From a virus (Duplodnaviria; Heunggongvirae; Uroviricota; Caudoviricetes), in the IMG/VR virus record IMGVR_UViG_3300029250_000062, positions 1-9,713 of that record: a stretch of DNA of 9,713 nt; one strand, written 5' to 3'. A program made the translations under genes and the position numbers. Shown here piece by piece: positions 1 through 9,713 of this stretch. The notes beneath the pieces are model-generated. The model saw only the letters and a program-made list of their open reading frames with translations, had not been told where the DNA came from and did not search any database. Each line of letters begins with the position of its first letter. The first letter of the stretch is position 1.

Positions 1-1764
1 GAATATTACTTTGTCATTGCGCTGGCCGGGCAGTCCAACTCGATGTCTTTTGGCGAGGGGCTGCCGCTGCCGGAGACATATGACCGTCCGGACCCGCGTA
101 TTAAACAGCTGGCGCGTCGCAGTACGGTGACGCCGGGTGGTGCCGCCTGTAAATATAACGACATCATTCCGGCAGACCACTGTCTGCATGATGTGCAGGA
201 TATGAGTAACCTGAATCATCCTCATGCAGACCTGAGTAAGGGACAGTACGGTTGTGTGGGGCATGCTCTGCATGTTGCCAAAAAGCTGCTGCCGTTTATG
301 CCTGCGAATGCGGGTATCCTTCTTGTTCCATGTGGCCGTGGCGATCCGGGATTTACTGCGGGGGCCGAGGGGGCGTTTAACGAAGCGTCGGGAGCGACCG
401 CAGGCTCGTCCCTGTGGGGGGCGGATAAACCGCTGTATCATGACCTGGTCAGCAGAACCCGTGCGGCCCTGAAGAAAAATCCGAAGAACGTGCTGTTATC
501 AGTGATCTGGATGCAGGGAGAAAAAGATGTCAGTTCGGGGAGACATGCAGAACACAATGCGCTTTTCCTTGCCATGGTAAATCAGTTCCGTACGGAACTG
601 GCAGATGTGGCAGAGCAGTGTACTGGCGGGACAACGGCCAGCGTCCCGTGGATTTGCGGTGATACCACGTACTACTGGAAGGAAAGGTATGCAGCGCCGT
701 ATGAGGCGGTTTACGGTGGGTATAAAGGCAAAGCTGCGCAGAATATTCACTTTGTGCCGTTGATGACGGATGAGCATGGTGCGAATGTGCCGACAAACGA
801 GCCGTCAGAAGATCCGGACATTATCCCGGCGGGATACTATGGCGCTGCGTCACGCACTGCCAGTAACTGGACGTCAGCCGATCGTAAAACGCACTTCAGT
901 TCATGGGCGCGAAGAGGCCTTGTTTCAGACCGCCTGGCAGGTGCCATTTTGCAGTACGCCGGGCGGACATTATCGTTCCTTACCGGGCAGAGCGCACCGC
1001 AGTCGGGTGGTACAACTCCCGGTGATGATGTCAGTCCGGGGACACCGGATGTTGAGAAACCGCAGGATGGCGGTGTTGCTGGTACTGGTCATGATGAGGC
1101 CGTGAGCAGTACCAGGACGGTGGCTGAATATGATGCGAACAGTGGAAATGGTGTATGGACAGAGCAGCAGTGGGGGGCTGCCGGTGGCAAAGGCACTGTG
1201 ACTGATGACGGTGGACGGAAAGCGCTACGACTGGAAAAACAGCCCGGTAAACTGACGTCCTGGAAAATGTTCCGTACTGTTGCAGTGGAGGAGGCAAAAA
1301 ATCTTCTCAGCAAGGGGGGTGAAATTGCCGTACGGTTCAAAATTCCGGATGGAAGCGAACTGGTGAACGGACAGTTTGTCTTTGGTCTCTACTGGCCGGT
1401 GTCGCAGTGGGCGTCAGGCGCGGCAGCAAACAGTATGCTGGCATCATTCTTCCTTCAGACGGATGCATCAAATCTGAATCTTATGCACCACAAGGGCACG
1501 TCGAATGCACAACTGGGTACATTTGGTGCGTTTGACCATAACTGGCATACGGTTGTTTTCCGCTTTGCGGGAAATAACAGCGAAAGAGTCGTTCCGGTGA
1601 TTGATGGTACAGAGCAGACGGCGTTTGACCTTGTGATGTGGACAAATGATGGCTTTACAGCAGATACGCTGACGCTGACAGATATCACGGGGGCAAAAGC
1701 GACGTATCCTGTACTGCTTGATACGGTCACAGTCAAAGTTAACGAAAGCCGGGCATCATCATAA
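1..1764 (+). CDS. NanS-p-like sialate O-acetylesterase (SGNH/SASA-type hydrolase with C-terminal extension); 5'-truncated by window edge
   Basis: Frame is open from base 1; the listed ATG at 43 is internal. First in-window residues EYYFVIALAGQSNSMSFGEG contain the GQSN catalytic-serine block of SGNH/SASA esterases. Stop TAA at 1762-1764. Position immediately upstream of the lysis cassette matches where nanS-p sits in Stx-type lambdoid prophages (recollection, not searched). Confidence 0.7.
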   Translation, partial: EYYFVIALAGQSNSMSFGEGLPLPETYDRPDPRIKQLARRSTVTPGGAACKYNDIIPADHCLHDVQDMSNLNHPHADLSKGQYGCVGHALHVAKKLLPFMPANAGILLVPCGRGDPGFTAGAEGAFNEASGATAGSSLWGADKPLYHDLVSRTRAALKKNPKNVLLSVIWMQGEKDVSSGRHAEHNALFLAMVNQFRTELADVAEQCTGGTTASVPWICGDTTYYWKERYAAPYEAVYGGYKGKAAQNIHFVPLMTDEHGANVPTNEPSEDPDIIPAGYYGAASRTASNWTSADRKTHFSSWARRGLVSDRLAGAILQYAGRTLSFLTGQSAPQSGGTTPGDDVSPGTPDVEKPQDGGVAGTGHDEAVSSTRTVAEYDANSGNGVWTEQQWGAAGGKGTVTDDGGRKALRLEKQPGKLTSWKMFRTVAVEEAKNLLSKGGEIAVRFKIPDGSELVNGQFVFGLYWPVSQWASGAAANSMLASFFLQTDASNLNLMHHKGTSNAQLGTFGAFDHNWHTVVFRFAGNNSERVVPVIDGTEQTAFDLVMWTNDGFTADTLTLTDITGAKATYPVLLDTVTVKVNESRASS

Positions 1765-4199: not shown

Positions 4200-4588
4200 A
4201 AACCGGCCAAGGATAATCCGCTGAAGATTTGCCGGTGGCTAAAGGGGCCAAGCCACCAATTTACGTAATTAGCCACAGAGATACAATATTTTAGTTTACT
4301 TATGTATTTCTGAAGCATGTCTTTGCGCAGTATCGTCGCCGTATTCCCACATGAACAGAGACCGCAGCCCTACCGGGAGACTCCTCTGCGCGAGTGTGCG
4401 GGGATAATCAAAAACGATACACACCGGGGTTTACCGCGTTAACGGAGCGCGGCGTTGTCCCCTCATGGTCGCTGGTCCGGTGCGATGGTGGAAGAAACCG
4501 GACGATGTGTTACCTCGCAAGCTCTGTTATGTCATGTGTCTGATTTGTGATTTAAGTCGGATAATTGTCGTTGCCATTAAACAGAGGA

Positions 4589-4631
4589 TTGATGACCGAC
4601 AGGGTGGCATTGTTAGAATAAGACTTATTCT
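4589..4631 (+). promoter_or_regulatory. Putative sigma70 promoter (extended -10) with overlapping perfect palindromic operator-like site
   Basis: -35-like TTGATG (4589-4594), 19-bp spacer, extended -10 TGtTAGAAT (4611-4619). Palindrome AGAATAAG-a-CTTATTCT (4615-4631, 8-bp perfect arms) overlaps the -10/+1 region and ends 14 bp before the downstream lipoprotein start. Confidence 0.3.
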
Positions 4632-4645
4632 TATCTGTGCCGGGA

Positions 4646-4978
4646 ATGAAAATGAAAAGAAATCTTCCGTTAATTATTTTGTTGTCTTCTCTGGTTATGG
4701 GCTGTACGCAACATAAAACAGATATGCCCCGACAGTTGGTTAAGGCATTACCACAATATCCGGCCTATGCAGCGGCAAATTATATAAAGGGACGGGTTGA
4801 TGTGAAGTTTGATATTGGTGCTGATGGTACTGTCACCCGAATTGAGTTTATCCGTTCAGAGCCGCACCATTTGTTTGATGAGCAGGTTGTAAAGGCGATG
4901 GCAAAATGGCGATTTGAGAAGGACAGGCCGTGTAAAGGCGTGAAGAAAACGTTTATCTTTAGTCCTTCTGCACCCTGA
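4646..4978 (+). CDS. Lipoprotein consisting essentially of a TonB C-terminal-like domain (moron candidate)
   Basis: Signal peptide with lipobox (MKMKRNLPLIILLSSLVMG-C; Thr at +2 suggests outer-membrane sorting). Mature part LPQYPAYAAANYIKGRVDVKFDIGADGTVTRIEFIRSEPHHLFDEQVVKAMAKWRFE parallels the E. coli TonB C-terminal domain (PQYP...G.V.V.F.....DG.V.......P...F...V..AM..WR(Y/F), from memory). Alternative start ATG 4652 has better SD spacing. Confidence 0.7.
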   Translation: MKMKRNLPLIILLSSLVMGCTQHKTDMPRQLVKALPQYPAYAAANYIKGRVDVKFDIGADGTVTRIEFIRSEPHHLFDEQVVKAMAKWRFEKDRPCKGVKKTFIFSPSAP

Positions 4979-5351: not shown

Positions 5352-5717
5352 ATGGCTCAGCTTCGTACACTCCAGAGCAGAATCAAAACACTGAATACCC
5401 GACGGGTGAATATTCTGAAGGGGGAGCAGCGTCGTGTCAGTGGCAGTGCACGTGTTTCCCTCAAGCGTCATATCTGGCTGAGGGACGCCGGGCAGTGCTG
5501 TATCTGTGGTCGTGTGGTTGACCTCTGTGACAGTGAACTTGATCACCGAATTGCACTTCAGTTCGGTGGTGGTAATGAGGAGACGAATCTCTGGACGCTC
5601 TGTACCGAATGCCATCGACAAAAGTCTGCTCGTGAAGCGGCGGGTGGTATGCCGGACCCGACGCTGCCGGAGGTGTCCGGAGGTAGTGGCAGAGCGGACG
5701 ACATCATCGGACTGTAA
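5352..5717 (+). CDS. HNH endonuclease (packaging-associated, HK97 gp74-like)
   Basis: CxxC...DH...N...CxxCH arrangement: CCICGRVVD, SELDHRIALQFGGGNEETNLWTLCTECHRQK. Sits immediately upstream of the cos-like region and terS, the usual place in HK97-like packaging modules. Confidence 0.85.
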   Translation: MAQLRTLQSRIKTLNTRRVNILKGEQRRVSGSARVSLKRHIWLRDAGQCCICGRVVDLCDSELDHRIALQFGGGNEETNLWTLCTECHRQKSAREAAGGMPDPTLPEVSGGSGRADDIIGL

Positions 5718-6572: not shown

Positions 6573-8230
6573 TACCTGTATGGAGCACAGCCTGCCCGGA
6601 CTGGGCAGAGCGCCTGAAAAAGGGGCTGTCGATTATTCCGGATCCGATTTATCCGGACGAGGCCGCACATGCCCTGGCGATTTTTAAACAACTGCGGATT
6701 GTGGATGCACCTGGTAGCCCGACGTTCGGGGAGTCCTGTGCACGGTGGGTGTTTGACCTGGTGGCGGCCCTGTTTGGCTCCTACGATGCGCAGACCGGTG
6801 TACGCCATATCAAGGAAGTTTTTATCCTTATCCCCAAGAAAAACTCGAAGTCCACGCTGGCCGCGGGGATCATGATGACGGCGCTGTTACTGAACTGGCG
6901 GCAGGCGGCGGGTTACACGATTCTGGCCCCGACTGTGGAGGTGGCGGCCAACGCCTTCAACCCTGCCCGGGATATGGTACGACGTGACGATGATCTGGAT
7001 GACCTCTGCCAGGTACAGACCCATATCCGGACCATCACCCACAGGGTGACAGACACCACCCTGAAGGTGGTGGCAGCCGATCCGAATACGGTGTCCGGTA
7101 TCAAGTCCGTGGGTACGCTGATTGATGAGTTGTGGCTGTTTGGCAAGCAGTGCAAGGCGGAGGACATGTTACGTGAAGCCATAGGCGGCCTTGCCTCCCG
7201 CCCGGAAGGGTTTGTGGTGTATACGACCACCCAGTCGAATGAACCGCCCGCCGGGGTGTTCAGACAGAAACTGCAGTACGCCCGGGATGTGCGCGACGGC
7301 AAAATTCATGATCCGCACTTTCTGCCGGTGATATTTGAACACCCTCCTGAAATGGTGGAAAGCGGGACTCACCTGCTGATGGAAAACCTCGCCATGGTCA
7401 ATCCGAATCTCGGCTATTCAGTGGATGAGGCCTTTCTGTACCGGGAGTACCGTAAAGCCCGGGAAGCCGGTGAAGAGACATTCCGGGGGTTCATGTCAAA
7501 ACACGCCAATGTGGAAATTGGTCTTGCCCTGCGCTCTGACCGCTGGGCGGGGGCTGATTTCTGGGAAGAGCAGGGCCGTTGTATCAGCCTGGACGATATC
7601 CTGCGTCGTGCTGATGTGGTGACGGTGGGGATTGACGGCGGAGGGCTGGATGATCTGCTGGGGATGTATGTGATTGGGCGTGACCGGGAGACCCGCGAAT
7701 GGCTGGGCTGGGGCCATGCCTGGGCGCATGAAACCGCGGTGGTCCGACGGAAGAGCGAGGCGTCCCGGTTTCAGGATCTTGTTGCCTGTGGAGATATGAC
7801 CATTGTCCGGCGTGTCGGGGATGACACGGCGGAAGTGGCGGAATATGTGCGTCGCATTCATGAGGCTGAGTTACTGGACCATATCGGTATTGACCCGTCA
7901 GGGGTGGGGCAGATTCTGGATTCACTGGCGGAAGCCGGGATCCCCGACGGAATTGTGGTGGGGATAAGCCAGGGCTGGAAACTGGGCGGGGCCATTAAAA
8001 CCACCGAGCGCAAACTGGCTGAAGGGGTGCTGGTGCATGGTGACCAGCCCCTGATGGCCTGGTGTGTCGGCAATGCCCGGGTGGAGCCTAAAGGTAACGC
8101 CATTCTTATCACCAAACAGGCCAGTGGACGGGGAAAAATTGACCCGCTGATGGCGCTGTTCAATGCGGTCTCCCTGATGTCCCTTAACCCGGAACCGAAA
8201 AAGAAAGAATATGCGGTTTTTTTCATATAA
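6569..8230 (+). CDS. terL: Terminase large subunit (ATPase + RNase H-like nuclease domains)
   Basis: 553 aa. Walker A-like ILIPKKNSKSTLAAG, Walker B-like GTLIDELW, C-terminal nuclease-type acidic cluster VTVGIDGGGLDDLLGMYVIG. Translationally coupled to terS. Confidence 0.9.
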   Translation: MIPVWSTACPDWAERLKKGLSIIPDPIYPDEAAHALAIFKQLRIVDAPGSPTFGESCARWVFDLVAALFGSYDAQTGVRHIKEVFILIPKKNSKSTLAAGIMMTALLLNWRQAAGYTILAPTVEVAANAFNPARDMVRRDDDLDDLCQVQTHIRTITHRVTDTTLKVVAADPNTVSGIKSVGTLIDELWLFGKQCKAEDMLREAIGGLASRPEGFVVYTTTQSNEPPAGVFRQKLQYARDVRDGKIHDPHFLPVIFEHPPEMVESGTHLLMENLAMVNPNLGYSVDEAFLYREYRKAREAGEETFRGFMSKHANVEIGLALRSDRWAGADFWEEQGRCISLDDILRRADVVTVGIDGGGLDDLLGMYVIGRDRETREWLGWGHAWAHETAVVRRKSEASRFQDLVACGDMTIVRRVGDDTAEVAEYVRRIHEAELLDHIGIDPSGVGQILDSLAEAGIPDGIVVGISQGWKLGGAIKTTERKLAEGVLVHGDQPLMAWCVGNARVEPKGNAILITKQASGRGKIDPLMALFNAVSLMSLNPEPKKKEYAVFFI

Positions 8231-8255
8231 CCCTGTTCACACTGTAACCATCACG

Positions 8256-8277
8256 AACCGCTCCGGCGGTTTTTTTA
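8256..8277 (+). terminator. Putative intrinsic terminator between terL and the head genes
   Basis: Stem AACCGC (8256-8261) / GCGGTT (8266-8271), tetraloop TCCG, followed by a T-run (through about 8280). Short stem, so modest confidence. Confidence 0.4.
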
Positions 8278-8293
8278 TTTTCAGGAGGCTGAT

Positions 8294-9713
8294 GTGACTC
8301 TTAAACGGGCCTGTTCCCTGCTGACGGTGAAATCCTTCAGTGAGGATGAACGGGTGATCACCGGGATTGCGTCAACGCCTTCTCCGGATCGGGATGGTGA
8401 CATCCTGGAGCCGGAGGGCGCGGAGTTTGGCAGTGCGATCCCGTTTCTCTGGCAGCATGACCATTCCCGCCCGGTGGGGCAGTGTACGGTGCGCCGGGTC
8501 AGCGAAGGGCTGGAAATCACGGCAACACTGGTGAAGCCCGTACCGGATATGCCGTCGCAACTGGCTGCCCGGCTGGATGAGGTCTGGGCGGCCATTAAGA
8601 CCGGGCTGGTCAGGGGGCTGTCCGTGGGCTTCCGTCCCCATGAATACACCTTTCTGGACGGAGGCGGACTGCATTTTCTGCGCTGGGAACTGATGGAGGT
8701 GTCTGCCGTCACCGTGCCCGCGAATGCGGAATGCACCATCCGGACCATTAAATCTTACGACCGCCCGTTTTCTGCCGCGTCCGGCAACCGGAAACCGGTG
8801 GTGAAAATCGCATCTTCTGCCGGCGCTGCGGCACAGTCAACAACCGTTTTTCATAAGGAAAAGACCATAATGAATATTGGCGAACAGATTAAAAGTTTTG
8901 AAAACAAGCGTGCAGCGCTGGCAGCCTCCCTTGAGGAGGTCATGACCAAAGCCGCAGAGGAAGGGCGCACGCTGGATGTGGAGGAGGAAGAGCATTACGA
9001 CAACACCGCAGCGGAAATCCGTCAGGTGGATGCGCACCTGAAGCGCCTGCGTGAACTGGAAGCCGGTAAGGCCGCCACGGCGCAGCCGGTGAAACAGGCC
9101 GGTAACGGGAATGTGGCCGCGGTGGCTTCTGCGCCGGTGATCCGTGTGGAGCAGAAACTGGATAAGGGGATTGGCTTCGCCCGCTTTGCCAAATCGCTGG
9201 CTGCGGCTAAAGGCGTCCGATCTGAAGCCCTGGAAGTGGCCCGTCGTCAGTATCCGGATGACAGTCGTCTGCATCATGTCCTGAAATCGGCAGTGGGCGC
9301 GGGGACCACCACGGATCCGCAGTGGGCAGGCAGCCTGTCTGAATATCAGGAATACGCACAGGACTTTATTGATTACCTGCGTCCGCAGACCATTATCGGG
9401 CGATTTGGTCAGGGCGGGATCCCTGCACTTCGTCAGGTGCCGTTCAATATCCGTGTGCACGCCCAGGTGTCCGGCGGTGCTGCCGGCTGGGTGGGTGAGG
9501 GTAAGGCAAAACCCCTGACGAAGTTTGATTTTGAATCCATCACCTTCAGTCATGCGAAGGTGTCGGCCATTGCGGTACTGACGGAAGAATTGATCCGTTT
9601 TTCCAGTCCGGCTGCTGATGCACTGGTCCGTAATGCGCTGGCGGAAGCGGTGGTGGCGCGTCTGGATACAGACTTTGTGGACCCGAAAAAAGCCGCAGTG
9701 GCAGATGTCTCCC
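8294..9713 (+). CDS. HK97-family prohead protease fused in-frame to major capsid protein (delta domain + HK97 fold); 3'-truncated by window edge
   Basis: GTG 8294 preceded by SD AGGAGG (8283-8288). I translated this frame codon by codon and found no stop from 8294 to 9712; that is why it is absent from the ORF track. Protease motifs GIASTPSPDRDGDILEP, PFLWQHD, VSAVTVPANAEC; then Ala/Ser/Gly-rich linker; then from Met (ATG 8870) a coiled-coil delta-like region and capsid-like body (DKGIGFARFAKSL... GWVGEGKAKP... AVLTEELIRFSSPAA). Confidence 0.75.
   Translation, partial: MTLKRACSLLTVKSFSEDERVITGIASTPSPDRDGDILEPEGAEFGSAIPFLWQHDHSRPVGQCTVRRVSEGLEITATLVKPVPDMPSQLAARLDEVWAAIKTGLVRGLSVGFRPHEYTFLDGGGLHFLRWELMEVSAVTVPANAECTIRTIKSYDRPFSAASGNRKPVVKIASSAGAAAQSTTVFHKEKTIMNIGEQIKSFENKRAALAASLEEVMTKAAEEGRTLDVEEEEHYDNTAAEIRQVDAHLKRLRELEAGKAATAQPVKQAGNGNVAAVASAPVIRVEQKLDKGIGFARFAKSLAAAKGVRSEALEVARRQYPDDSRLHHVLKSAVGAGTTTDPQWAGSLSEYQEYAQDFIDYLRPQTIIGRFGQGGIPALRQVPFNIRVHAQVSGGAAGWVGEGKAKPLTKFDFESITFSHAKVSAIAVLTEELIRFSSPAADALVRNALAEAVVARLDTDFVDPKKAAVADVS
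8870..9713 (+). CDS. Possible independently translated major capsid protein from internal in-frame start (nested in the protease-capsid ORF)
   Basis: ATG 8870 preceded by AAGGAAAAG (8855-8863). Product begins MNIGEQIKSFENKRAALAASLEEVMTKAAEEG, a typical N-terminal scaffold-like delta domain. Analogous in logic to lambda C/Nu3 nested translation. Confidence 0.4.
   Translation, partial: MNIGEQIKSFENKRAALAASLEEVMTKAAEEGRTLDVEEEEHYDNTAAEIRQVDAHLKRLRELEAGKAATAQPVKQAGNGNVAAVASAPVIRVEQKLDKGIGFARFAKSLAAAKGVRSEALEVARRQYPDDSRLHHVLKSAVGAGTTTDPQWAGSLSEYQEYAQDFIDYLRPQTIIGRFGQGGIPALRQVPFNIRVHAQVSGGAAGWVGEGKAKPLTKFDFESITFSHAKVSAIAVLTEELIRFSSPAADALVRNALAEAVVARLDTDFVDPKKAAVADVS

What the first reader, a model, noticed from the sequence alone, without database searches (positions are those of the whole stretch)
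8294..9713. Prohead protease and major capsid protein encoded as one continuous reading frame, with an internal RBS and ATG at the capsid start
My codon-by-codon translation from GTG 8294 gives an HK97-type protease domain, then a flexible Ala/Ser/Gly-rich linker (SAASGNRKPVVKIASSAGAAAQSTTVF), then without any stop a delta-domain/capsid protein beginning at ATG 8870, which itself has a plausible SD (AAGGAAAAG). This implies a long protease-scaffold-capsid polyprotein and possibly a shorter capsid-only product from the internal start, which would set the protease:capsid ratio and guarantee protease encapsidation. The ORF track misses it because the ORF has no stop in the window. Fusions of this kind are known in principle but are not the canonical HK97 arrangement.
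Basis: seen in the sequence. Interest (0 to 1): 0.65.

Follow-up and report, generated by a model that had tools for sequence, protein, structure and literature searches.

The report
Protease–capsid fusion gene with nested start
A common E. coli prophage encodes its head-maturation protease and its capsid protein as one long gene, which was already known, and comparison with relatives indicates that a second, conserved ribosome-loading site inside the gene also makes the capsid protein alone, much as phage lambda and herpesviruses make protease and scaffold from nested genes.

Summary
Window 8294-9712 is one open frame, the first 473 codons of a 645-aa gene. It encodes an HK97-type (S78) prohead protease, a disordered linker, a helical delta/scaffold hairpin and an HK97-fold capsid protein. 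It is not an assembly error: identical DNA is in about 1,250 complete E. coli genomes and many Stx phages, and full-length fusions persist down to 37% identity in other phyla.

The fusion itself is already known. GenBank calls it "major head protein/prohead protease", PHROG 617 covers it end to end, and similar fusions are published for actinophages and Pseudomonas phage MD8.

The internal start was not annotated in any record I inspected, and I found no paper describing it. It is strongly supported:
- ATG 8870 with an SD is conserved in every intact homolog although the linker is hypervariable.
- It is the only one of 636 alignment columns that combines a conserved SD core with a start codon.
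- The Gly codon in the SD is GGA in 18 of 18 sequences, against 0-19% at 38 other Gly columns.
- The site is an AT-rich, unstructured island.
- In split-gene relatives the capsid gene starts at this same Met with the same SD.

Most likely two products are made, a 69-kDa protease-capsid fusion and a 48-kDa capsid precursor. All the evidence is computational. Interest is moderate.

The parts
8255..8281 (+). Terminator-like hairpin (GAACCGC-TCCG-GCGGTTT) with a T-run, between the terL stop (8228-8230) and the SD of the fusion gene
   Evidence: T-rich sequence also lies just upstream of the SD in the other Enterobacterales loci. Function was not tested.
8283..8288 (+). SD1, AGGAGG, 5 nt upstream of the GTG start of the full-length ORF
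   Evidence: Duplex energy with the anti-SD is -10.3 kcal/mol.
8294..9713 (+). Full-length ORF for protease-linker-delta-capsid. The window holds codons 1-473 of 645, and the gene continues 519 nt beyond the window end including its stop codon. Predicted product 69.0 kDa.
8294..8719 (+). HK97 gp4-type (Peptidase_S78) prohead serine protease domain, residues 1-142
   Evidence: Pfam PF04586 at 34.7-35.5 bits against a cut-off of 21. BLASTP against HK97 gp4 gives 29% identity, E=4e-9. AF2 pLDDT is about 85-90.
8456..8458 (+). Codon CAT for His55, the candidate catalytic His (LWQHD motif)
   Evidence: Invariant in 60 sequences down to 37% identity. Lies one residue from HK97 gp4 His65 in the BLAST alignment.
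8621..8623 (+). Codon TCC for Ser110, the candidate catalytic Ser (GLSVGF motif)
   Evidence: Aligns exactly with HK97 gp4 Ser114 in GMSVGF. Invariant in 60 sequences.
8720..8869 (+). Disordered, hypervariable linker rich in Ala/Ser/Lys/Thr, residues 143-192, which also carries the internal translation-initiation region
   Evidence: AF2 pLDDT below 50 over 143-193. It is the most variable, indel-rich part of alignments A1 and A2.
8855..8860 (+). SD2, AAGGAA, internal Shine-Dalgarno 9 nt upstream of ATG 8870
   Evidence: An SD core is present in 89% of homologs at this column against a 6.8% column mean. The Gly codon in the SD is GGA in 18 of 18 sequences. The same SD serves the capsid gene in split relatives.
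8870..8872 (+). Internal in-frame ATG (Met193), the proposed start of the delta-capsid product of 453 aa and 48.2 kDa. In the +1 frame, TAA-TGA (8868-8873) overlaps it.
8876..9079 (+). Delta-domain-like helical hairpin (scaffolding domain), residues 195-262
   Evidence: AF2 helices 195-223 and 229-262 with pLDDT above 90. A weak coiled-coil Pfam hit lies at 189-210.
9080..9148 (+). Second variable, disordered segment, residues 263-285. Candidate region for the maturation cleavage (inference).
   Evidence: pLDDT below 50 over 267-285. Variable with indels in A1.
9149..9298 (+). Conserved small three-helix module, residues 286-335, of unknown fate: either part of the scaffold or of the mature N-terminus
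   Evidence: AF2 helices 293-304, 309-319 and 324-330 with pLDDT about 82. Conserved in A1 and A3.
9299..9713 (+). Start of the HK97-fold capsid core, residues about 336-473 in the window. The core continues to residue 645 outside the window.
   Evidence: Pfam PF05065 at 53.1 bits for the full protein. Foldseek matches Bxb1, D3 and HK97 capsids at probability 1.0, with TM up to 0.76 normalised to the target.

Best explanation
This is the head-assembly gene of a lambdoid (Stx-phage-type) E. coli prophage, and it works as a nested, in-frame two-product gene. Ribosomes that start at GTG 8294 make a 69-kDa polyprotein: an HK97 gp4-type serine protease, a flexible linker of about 50 residues, a delta-like helical scaffolding hairpin and an HK97-fold capsid protein. 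Ribosomes that load independently at the internal site (AAGGAA, 9 nt, ATG 8870) make the 48-kDa delta-capsid precursor alone. Both products share the delta and capsid parts, so they co-assemble into capsomers and procapsids. The minority of subunits carrying the protease tether it covalently to the inner face of the shell. Encapsidation is therefore guaranteed, and the dose is set by the relative strength of the two initiation sites. Once the shell is closed, the protease removes the linker and scaffold parts and degrades itself, leaving the mature capsid protein. Shown here: the ORF, the domains, the conserved catalytic residues, and RNA-level selection on the internal start. Inferred: that two proteins are made, their ratio, co-assembly and the cleavage sites. 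The layout is one indel away from the ordinary two-gene arrangement, and both forms occur among relatives.
For: ORF and domains:
- The frame is open. The full gene is 645 aa and is annotated from the same GTG.
- S78 protease and Phage_capsid both score above the Pfam cut-offs.
- His55 and Ser110 are invariant in 60 sequences down to 37% identity. Ser110 aligns with HK97 gp4 Ser114.
- The AF2 model shows protease, disordered linker, helical hairpin starting at residue 195, and an HK97 fold. Foldseek matches HK97, Bxb1 and D3 capsids.

The fusion is real and maintained:
- About 1,250 E. coli genomes carry it.
- Full-length fusions occur in Salmonella, Enterobacter, Klebsiella, Serratia, Pantoea, Proteus, Rhizobium, Chelativorans, Hydrocarboniphaga, Pseudomonas phage IME307 and a Rhizobium phage.

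Internal start:
- All 29 intact loci have an in-frame ATG or GTG at the start of the delta helix, preceded by AAGGA, AAAGGA, AGGAGG or GAAGGAGG, although the linker residues vary and contain indels.
- Of 636 alignment columns, this is the only one combining an SD core in 89% of sequences (column mean 6.8%) with a start codon.
- 55 of 60 representatives of 50%-identity clusters have a Met there. Four of the other five have Val, and the fifth has a Met nine residues upstream.
- The Gly codon inside the SD is GGA in 18 of 18 sequences. The 38 other conserved Gly columns of the same sequences use GGA 0-19% of the time, and GGA is 9.5% of all Gly codons. The synonymous position is therefore under RNA-level selection.
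- The -30..+15 region has 36% GC against 55% for the ORF and is the lowest-GC window in 17 of 27 loci. Predicted unpaired probability is 0.63, against 0.40 for background codons and 0.38 for the upstream start.
- In split-gene relatives the capsid gene starts at the homologous Met with the same SD, and the protease stop lies in or next to the SD-ATG spacer. These are Devosia, Chelativorans, Burkholderia phage FUBS1 and Moraxella phage Mcat7.
- Capsid-only proteins in the 1.8-billion-protein library begin at query residue 193-196.
Against: - No direct evidence exists for either protein species, such as proteomics, N-terminal sequencing or ribosome profiling. I found none in the searchable literature.
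- In the E. coli sequence the internal SD is only moderate. It scores -6.2 kcal/mol, within the top 8-13% of positions in the ORF, with a rather long 9-10 nt spacer. The upstream site has a perfect AGGAGG. The ratio of the two products therefore cannot be predicted, and for E. coli the two sites have similar predicted accessibility (0.50 against 0.48).
- The homologs are phylogenetically related, so counts across sequences are not independent. The Gly-column and alignment-column controls share that phylogeny and mitigate this, but they do not give a formal probability.
- The proportion of fused forms among top database hits is inflated, because two-domain proteins score higher. Among deposited distant phages, split forms are at least as common as fused ones. 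Any advantage of the fusion therefore remains unproven.
Confidence: 0.77

Rival explanations
1. Polyprotein only. Every capsid subunit is made as the 69-kDa protease-delta-capsid fusion, giving one protease per subunit, and the internal ATG and SD are an unused relic of the ancestral two-gene arrangement.
For: The ORF is continuous and the upstream start has a strong AGGAGG SD. Published descriptions of similar fusions treat them as single propeptides (PMC8508860 read, PMC7302621). Split relatives show that the internal site once was, or elsewhere still is, a separate gene start, so a relic is conceivable.
Against: A relic would decay. Instead the SD core and start codon persist across lineages at 37-50% identity inside the fastest-evolving segment of the protein. 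The synonymous position of the SD's Gly codon is fixed as the otherwise rare GGA in 18 of 18 sequences. The region stays an AT-rich, unstructured island.
Confidence: 0.13
2. The conserved K-[G/E]-x-x-M motif is a protein-level signal, for example the protease's own cleavage site that releases delta-capsid from the protease, and not a translation signal.
For: HK97 protease cleaves gp5 after Lys103, in FNK|SLGS (own knowledge; the gp5 sequence around residue 104 was checked). A cleavage somewhere in the linker is expected in any model. Lys is frequent in the motif.
Against: The amino acids at the motif vary (K-E, K-G, Q-G, Q-E, T-G) while the nucleotides AGGA or GGAG persist. Gly is encoded only by GGA there. 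The same motif precedes the capsid ATG in split genes, where it lies at the end of a separate protease gene or overlaps its stop codon. The two functions are not mutually exclusive.
Confidence: 0.05
3. The internal SD-like sequence acts as an elongation pause site that helps the protease domain fold before the scaffold emerges, and is not a start site.
For: An SD-like motif sits inside an ORF, immediately after a domain boundary and within a disordered linker.
Against: This does not explain the conserved start codon at the correct spacing, the AT-rich unstructured context typical of initiation regions, or the homology with real gene starts.
Confidence: 0.03
4. The fusion is a sequencing or assembly frameshift or a decaying pseudogene, and the functional phage has separate protease and capsid genes.
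For: Defective copies with deletions or frameshifts do exist in individual genomes (P0003-P0011 and P0089, Arsenophonus locus L023).
Against: Identical or near-identical intact ORFs occur in 1,253 complete genomes and 90 or more phage records, including inducible and isolated phages (2851, BP-4795, JLK-2012, phi330). Fused orthologs of the same length occur across many genera.
Confidence: 0.01

Closest known systems
Phage HK97 gp4 (prohead protease) and gp5 (major capsid protein with N-terminal delta domain)
   Same: The protease family is homologous: S78, 29% identity, E=4e-9, with the Ser motif GLSVGF matching GMSVGF. The capsid protein has an HK97 fold and is preceded by a helical scaffolding domain fused to its N-terminus. 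The protease gene lies immediately upstream of the capsid gene.
   Different: HK97 has two separate genes, with a TAA stop and a 2-nt gap. Its protease is recruited non-covalently through its C-terminal region (own knowledge of Duda, Oh & Hendrix 2013, which could not be opened). Here the stop is missing and the protease is tethered covalently. The capsid parts show no significant BLASTP similarity. Gene order also differs: here the portal gene lies after the capsid gene.
Phage lambda C/Nu3 (and Mu I/Z) nested protease-scaffold genes
   Same: One ORF has an N-terminal protease and a C-terminal assembly domain, plus an in-frame internal start with its own RBS that makes the assembly domain alone. 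The shared C-terminus brings the protease into the procapsid (established knowledge; lambda and P2 are cited as single-gene protease-scaffold cases in PMC8508860).
   Different: Lambda uses an S49/ClpP-like protease, the nested product is a free scaffold, and the capsid protein gpE is a separate gene. Here the nested product is the scaffold-capsid fusion itself.
Herpesvirus UL26/UL26.5 (assemblin-scaffold with a nested scaffold gene)
   Same: The design logic is the same: a protease fused in frame to the scaffold, and a shorter, more abundant in-frame product lacking the protease (own knowledge).
   Different: The shorter product comes from a separate internal promoter and transcript in a eukaryotic host, not from an internal bacterial RBS. 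The capsid protein is separate.
Published single-gene protease(-scaffold)-capsid fusions: actinophage clusters AN, AM, AU, EE, EL, Rhodococcus phage RRH1, and Pseudomonas phage MD8 gp5
   Same: Protease, scaffold and HK97-fold capsid are encoded in one gene, and the papers describe this as unusual but recurrent (PMC5513430, PMC7302621, PMC8508860).
   Different: These are different sequence families. MD8 has a lambda C-like protease and a Mu-like capsid. My protease probe did not reach the actinophage genes. None of these papers mentions an internal start. My look at MD8 gp5 was inconclusive.
The same gene as already annotated in E. coli O157 and Stx phages (phrog_617; RefSeq WP_000173031.1)
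   Same: It is this gene. Annotations include 'putative major head protein/prohead protease' in BP-4795, YYZ-2008, JLK-2012 and Stx2a_WGPS6, 'capsid and scaffold', and 'phage major capsid protein'.
   Different: No record I inspected annotates the internal start or a second product. Several records name only one of the two functions.

Membership tests
Peptidase S78 (HK97 gp4-type prohead serine protease) | Significant match to the family profile (PF04586) above the curated cut-off | tested here: met
   34.7-35.5 bits against a cut-off of 21, residues 48-152. BLASTP against HK97 gp4 gives E=4e-9.
Peptidase S78 (HK97 gp4-type prohead serine protease) | Catalytic His and Ser conserved (His65 and Ser114 in HK97 gp4) | tested here: met
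   Ser110 aligns exactly with Ser114. His55 lies one residue from His65 in the ungapped BLAST alignment. Both are invariant in 60 sequences down to 37% identity. The identity of the HK97 catalytic residues is from my own knowledge; their positions were verified.
Peptidase S78 (HK97 gp4-type prohead serine protease) | Herpesvirus-assemblin-like fold of the catalytic domain | not tested
   The AF2 model of residues 5-140 is confident (pLDDT about 85-90). The whole-protein Foldseek list was filled by capsid hits, and no domain-only search was run.
Peptidase S78 (HK97 gp4-type prohead serine protease) | Proteolytic removal of the scaffold domain and self-degradation inside the procapsid | not testable with these tools
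   Needs biochemistry or proteomics.
HK97-fold major capsid protein (Pfam Phage_capsid PF05065) | Profile match above the curated cut-off | tested here: met
   53.1 bits against a cut-off of 24.2 for the full protein, residues 386-635. 28 bits for the part inside the window.
HK97-fold major capsid protein (Pfam Phage_capsid PF05065) | HK97 fold in three dimensions | tested here: met
   Foldseek against the PDB gives Bxb1, D3, HK97 Prohead I and II, and T5 capsids at probability 1.0, E down to 1.6e-14, and TM up to 0.76 normalised to the target.
HK97-fold major capsid protein (Pfam Phage_capsid PF05065) | N-terminal helical delta (scaffolding) domain fused to the capsid protein | tested here: met
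   A helical hairpin at 195-262 with pLDDT above 90 lies directly upstream of the capsid core. Its removal at maturation is inferred and was not tested.
HK97-fold major capsid protein (Pfam Phage_capsid PF05065) | Lys-Asn isopeptide 'chainmail' crosslink (K169-N356 in HK97). This is specific to HK97 and is not required for the fold family. | not tested
   No residue-level structural superposition was available.
Nested in-frame protease/assembly-protein genes (lambda C/Nu3 type) | Single ORF with an N-terminal protease and a C-terminal assembly domain | tested here: met
Nested in-frame protease/assembly-protein genes (lambda C/Nu3 type) | In-frame internal start codon with its own ribosome-binding site, under selection | tested here: met
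   Homology to real gene starts is shown.
Nested in-frame protease/assembly-protein genes (lambda C/Nu3 type) | Two polypeptides actually produced, with the shorter one in excess | not testable with these tools
   Needs western blot, mass spectrometry or ribosome profiling. Sequence-based strength estimates for the two sites are ambiguous in E. coli.
Single-gene protease-scaffold-capsid fusions (as described in actinophages and MD8) | Protease, scaffold and capsid domains in one ORF conserved among relatives | tested here: met
   phrog_617 matches end to end.

The most novel reading that the evidence does not exclude
A conserved internal ribosome-loading site may be a general and so far overlooked feature of protease-capsid fusion genes in tailed phages, including the independently evolved actinophage and MD8-type fusions. 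If so, these 'fusion' genes are really nested gene pairs. The two start sites would set the protease dose per capsid, as herpesviruses do with UL26/UL26.5, and lineages would switch between fused and split forms through single indels in a disordered linker without losing capsid expression.
Probability: 0.3. Interest if true: 0.6.

Novelty: new variant of a known kind. Interest (0 to 1): 0.45.

Why it matters
The fusion itself is old news. What could matter is how it is read. This gene sits in about a quarter of complete E. coli genomes and in most long-tailed Stx phages, yet every annotation I saw lists one product and often only one of its two functions. If the nested start is used, three things follow.
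- **Annotation:** genome annotations miss the real major capsid precursor, the 453-aa product starting at Met193.
- **Protease packaging:** how these phages load the right number of protease molecules into each shell gets a simple, testable answer: covalent tethering of a minority of subunits, with the dose set by two ribosome-binding sites.
- **Shared design:** the nested protease strategy known from lambda C/Nu3 and herpesvirus UL26/UL26.5 would extend to a third layout, in which the nested product is the capsid protein itself.

The fused and split relatives also offer a natural experiment on why covalent or non-covalent protease targeting is chosen.

Tried and rejected
- **Assembly frameshift:** rejected because of massive conservation.
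- **SD duplex energy alone:** in Enterobacterales the internal SD ranks only in the top 4-21% of positions, which is not convincing. I replaced it with the alignment-column test, the Gly-codon test and the composition and accessibility tests.
- **Cleavage-site explanation for the K-G/E motif:** rejected as the sole explanation because of the GGA lock and the varying amino acids.
- **BLASTP of the capsid part against HK97 gp5:** not significant. PDB sequence search gave only a weak Bxb1 hit at E=0.0017. Family membership therefore rests on Pfam and fold.
- **Shorter E. coli variants of 580-605 aa:** one-off deletion or frameshift derivatives that say nothing about the architecture.
- **Literature:** two queries were malformed. 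Others found fusions in actinophages and MD8 but nothing on internal initiation and no virion proteomics for this phage group. Three papers could not be opened: the HFTV1 ribosome-profiling preprint, Liu & Mushegian 2004 and Duda et al. 2013. Absence of prior description is therefore not proven.
- **Generality:** a tblastn probe with the protease domain did not reach the actinophage fusions. In MD8 gp5 the strongest in-frame SD plus ATG (M185) lies in a conserved protease motif, so the result is inconclusive without a comparative set.
- **Rfam:** no known RNA family anywhere in the window.
- **Promoters:** no promoter-like site in 7900-9713, so a separate internal transcript is not indicated.
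Full report
**1. The observation**

The ORF is missing from the mechanical ORF list only because it runs off the window end. GTG 8294 is preceded by AGGAGG (8283-8288) with a 5-nt spacer. ATG 8870 is preceded by AAGGAA (8855-8860) with a 9-nt spacer. Pfam finds Peptidase_S78 (residues 48-152) and Phage_capsid (from residue 386), both above the curated cut-offs.

**2. What and where it is**

The window is the late region of a lambdoid, Stx-phage-type E. coli prophage. In order it holds a NanS-p/SASA esterase, DUF1378, DUF826, lysozyme, Rz, a TonB_C-domain protein, an HNH endonuclease, TerS, TerL and then this gene.

The last 1.5 kb is 100% identical to E. coli chromosomes and occurs in 1,255 of 5,426 complete E. 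coli genomes. It also occurs in 93 phage records, including phages 2851, YYZ-2008, JLK-2012, BP-4795 and many Stx1a, Stx2a and Stx2c phages.

In a 100%-identical chromosome the gene is 1938 nt (645 aa), and RefSeq starts it at the same GTG. In that strain the prophage sits next to ompW and carries no stx genes. GenBank phage records already name the gene "putative major head protein/prohead protease(proteinase)". RefSeq calls it "phage major capsid protein", some records "phage prohead protease" or "capsid and scaffold", and JGI [quoted passage not shown]. PHROG 617 matches it end to end, and another PHROG is named "major head and protease protein". The fusion itself is therefore already known.

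**3. Anatomy**

An AlphaFold2 model built on 60 diverse homologs has mean pLDDT 79. It shows these segments:

| Residues | Feature | pLDDT |
|---|---|---|
| 5-140 | Compact protease domain | about 85-90 |
| 143-193 | Disordered linker | below 50 |
| 195-262 | Two-helix hairpin, the expected look of a delta/scaffolding domain | above 90 |
| 267-285 | Second disordered, variable stretch | below 50 |
| 293-330 | Small conserved three-helix module | about 82 |
| 345-645 | Capsid core | about 90 |

- The core matches solved capsids of Bxb1, D3, HK97 (Prohead I and II, Head II) and T5 at Foldseek probability 1.0, with TM up to 0.76 normalised to the target.
- The protease part is 29% identical to HK97 gp4 (E=4e-9). 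Ser110 (GLSVGF) aligns exactly with gp4 Ser114 (GMSVGF), and His55 (LWQHD) lies one residue from gp4 His65.
- His55 and Ser110 are among only 13 invariant columns in 60 sequences down to 37% identity. The protease is therefore presumably active throughout the family.
- The capsid part has no significant BLASTP similarity to HK97 gp5, so membership rests on the Pfam profile (53 bits) and the fold.

**4. The fusion is real and widespread, but not universal**

- Full-length fusions of about 645 aa at 73-78% identity occur in Salmonella, Enterobacter, Klebsiella, Serratia, Kosakonia, Pantoea, Yokenella and others.
- At 40-60% identity they occur in Proteus, Phlomobacter, Hydrocarboniphaga, several Rhizobiales and a Neomarinimicrobiota MAG.
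- In a library of 1.84 billion cluster representatives, 1,183 clusters match at E<1e-30. About 130 of the best 150 are full-length fusions. That proportion is inflated, because two-domain proteins score higher.
- Split relatives also exist, with separate protease and capsid genes: Devosia and Chelativorans genomes, Burkholderia phage FUBS1 and Moraxella phage Mcat7.
- Pseudomonas phage IME307 and a Rhizobium phage are fused.
- All share the unusual order TerL, protease/capsid, small ORF, portal.
- An Arsenophonus endosymbiont copy and several one-off E. coli variants are degraded.

**5. The internal start**

This part is not annotated in any record I inspected, and the comparative evidence for it is strong.

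a. In all 29 intact loci an in-frame ATG or GTG sits at the first residues of the delta helix. It is preceded at 5-10 nt by AAGGA, AAAGGA, CAGGAGGG or GAAGGAGG. The linker around it is the most variable, indel-rich part of the protein.

b. Of 636 alignment columns, this is the only one that combines an SD core in 89% of sequences (column mean 6.8%) with a start codon. The only other SD-rich columns come from the conserved "EDER" residues near the N-terminus and have no start codon.

c. Among 60 representatives of 50%-identity clusters, 55 have a Met within 8 residues of the helix start. Four of the other five have Val there, a possible GTG start, and the fifth has a Met nine residues upstream.

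d. The amino acids encoded by the SD vary (K-E, K-G, Q-G, Q-E, T-G) while the nucleotides persist. Where the residue is Gly, the codon is GGA in 18 of 18 sequences. The 38 other conserved Gly columns in the same sequences use GGA 0-19% of the time, and GGA is 9.5% of all Gly codons. This control shares the phylogeny, and it shows selection on the RNA and not on the protein.

e. The -30..+15 region averages 36% GC against 55% for the ORF and is the lowest-GC 45-nt window in 17 of 27 loci. Its predicted unpaired probability is 0.63, against 0.40 for background codons and 0.38 for the annotated start.

f. In the split relatives the capsid gene starts at the homologous Met (MSKIAEQI, MSKYAEQI, MTIAEKI and MNFQEQL, compared with MNIGEQI) with the same SD-spacer-ATG layout. 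The protease stop lies in the spacer (Devosia TGA, Chelativorans TAG), inside the SD (Burkholderia TAAGGA) or overlaps the ATG (Moraxella ATGA).

g. Capsid-only proteins in the large library begin at query residues 193-196.

In the window itself, the +1 frame reads TAA-TGA at 8868-8873, overlapping ATG 8870. That is the classic stop/start overlap one would see if the protease were one frame off.

**6. Mechanism proposed**

The gene most likely yields two in-frame products. One is a 69.0-kDa protease-linker-delta-capsid protein from GTG 8294. The other is a 48.2-kDa delta-capsid protein from ATG 8870. They share the assembly-competent part and so would co-assemble. Subunits bearing the protease would place it inside the shell on a flexible tether of about 50 residues. 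After assembly the protease would remove the linker and scaffold and degrade itself.

- **Shown:** the ORF, the domains, the conserved catalytic residues, RNA-level selection on the internal initiation region, and its homology to genuine gene starts.
- **Inferred:** that both products are made, their ratio, co-assembly, and the cleavage sites. The candidates for cleavage are the variable 263-285 segment, or about residue 336 by weak analogy with HK97 Ser104.

The ratio cannot be read from the sequence. In E. coli the upstream site has the stronger SD but a GTG start, while all other Enterobacterales use ATG. The two sites have similar predicted accessibility in E. coli, whereas in most relatives the internal site is clearly more open.

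**7. Rivals**

- **Polyprotein only, with a relic internal site (about 0.13).** This is contradicted by the persistence of the signal in the fastest-evolving segment and by the codon lock.
- **A protein-level cleavage motif (about 0.05).** This is contradicted by the varying residues with constant nucleotides, although a cleavage nearby is not excluded.
- **An elongation pause site (about 0.03).** This does not explain the start codon.
- **An artefact (about 0.01).** This is excluded.

**8. Comparison with what is known**

The closest functional analogues are lambda C/Nu3 (and Mu I/Z) and herpesvirus UL26/UL26.5. In each, a protease is fused in frame to the scaffold and a nested, shorter product lacks the protease. 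Here the nested product is the scaffold-capsid fusion itself.

The closest homologue with a known mechanism is HK97 gp4/gp5, which has two genes and non-covalent protease targeting.

Single-gene protease(-scaffold)-capsid fusions are published for actinophage clusters AN, AM, AU, EE and EL, for Rhodococcus phage RRH1 and for Pseudomonas phage MD8. None of the texts I could read mentions an internal start. I could not open three potentially relevant papers, and the literature library is limited. Prior description therefore cannot be excluded.

**9. Verdict**

The fusion is already known and very common. The conserved nested initiation site is a well-supported, apparently undescribed refinement, which makes this a new variant of a known kind of arrangement. 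Interest is moderate at 0.45. The result would not astonish a phage-assembly specialist, but it is directly testable and it affects the annotation of a gene present in thousands of genomes.

Noticed in passing
window 8255-8281: A terminator-like hairpin with a T-run sits between the terL stop and the SD of the fusion gene. T-rich sequence precedes the SD in the other Enterobacterales loci too. HK97 also has annotated putative terminators flanking its protease-capsid pair.
   Followed up: partly
L001 7370-13991 (window 6569 onward); also L043, L044, L045: The head-gene order is unusual: TerL, protease/capsid, a small ORF of about 60-73 aa (phrog_829), then portal. The portal gene therefore follows the capsid gene. 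The order is conserved in E. coli, Burkholderia, Moraxella and Pseudomonas phages.
   Followed up: partly
L001 11244-13991 (outside the window): The portal protein is 915 aa. The Phage_portal domain covers only residues 54-382. The C-terminal extension contains 4.3 tandem copies of a 162-nt (54-aa) repeat at 90% identity (L001 12822-13525). Phage JLK-2012 annotates the region as two ORFs.
   Followed up: partly
window 8868-8873: In the +1 frame, TAA-TGA overlaps the internal ATG (aTAATGAa). This is the classic stop/start overlap of coupled genes and may be a trace of a former two-gene arrangement that a 1-nt indel in the linker would restore.
   Followed up: partly
L029 about 4530-4594 and L030 about 4560-4621: The separate proteases of Devosia and Chelativorans end in an identical 20-residue tail, LDAPARDRAKPFVIRSIKRT, although the sequence before it differs. 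It may be a capsid-targeting peptide like the C-terminus of HK97 gp4. The fused forms have no such conserved tail.
   Followed up: no
window 8294 versus loci L003-L019: The E. coli lineage starts the full-length ORF with GTG, whereas all other Enterobacterales loci use ATG at the same position. This may be a down-tuning of the fusion product.
   Followed up: no
proteins P0001, P0123, P0132 (database hits): Some database proteins of about 1,080-1,094 aa carry the whole protease-capsid match at their C-terminus, behind an N-terminal extension of about 440 residues. P0001 has a TerL ATPase Pfam domain. They are either frameshifted TerL-capsid read-throughs or gene-calling artefacts.
   Followed up: no
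protein P0005 (E. coli O157:H-), residues 292-334 of the fusion, equivalent to window 9167-9295: A natural 43-residue in-frame deletion removes almost exactly the small three-helix module between the delta hairpin and the capsid core. Whether that copy is functional is unknown.
   Followed up: no
window 43-1764, 4637-4978, 5352-5717: Accessory late-region genes are present: a SASA/NanS-p-type esterase with DUF6645, a small TonB_C-domain protein, and an HNH endonuclease just upstream of terS/terL, the usual HNH-terminase pairing of cos phages.
   Followed up: no
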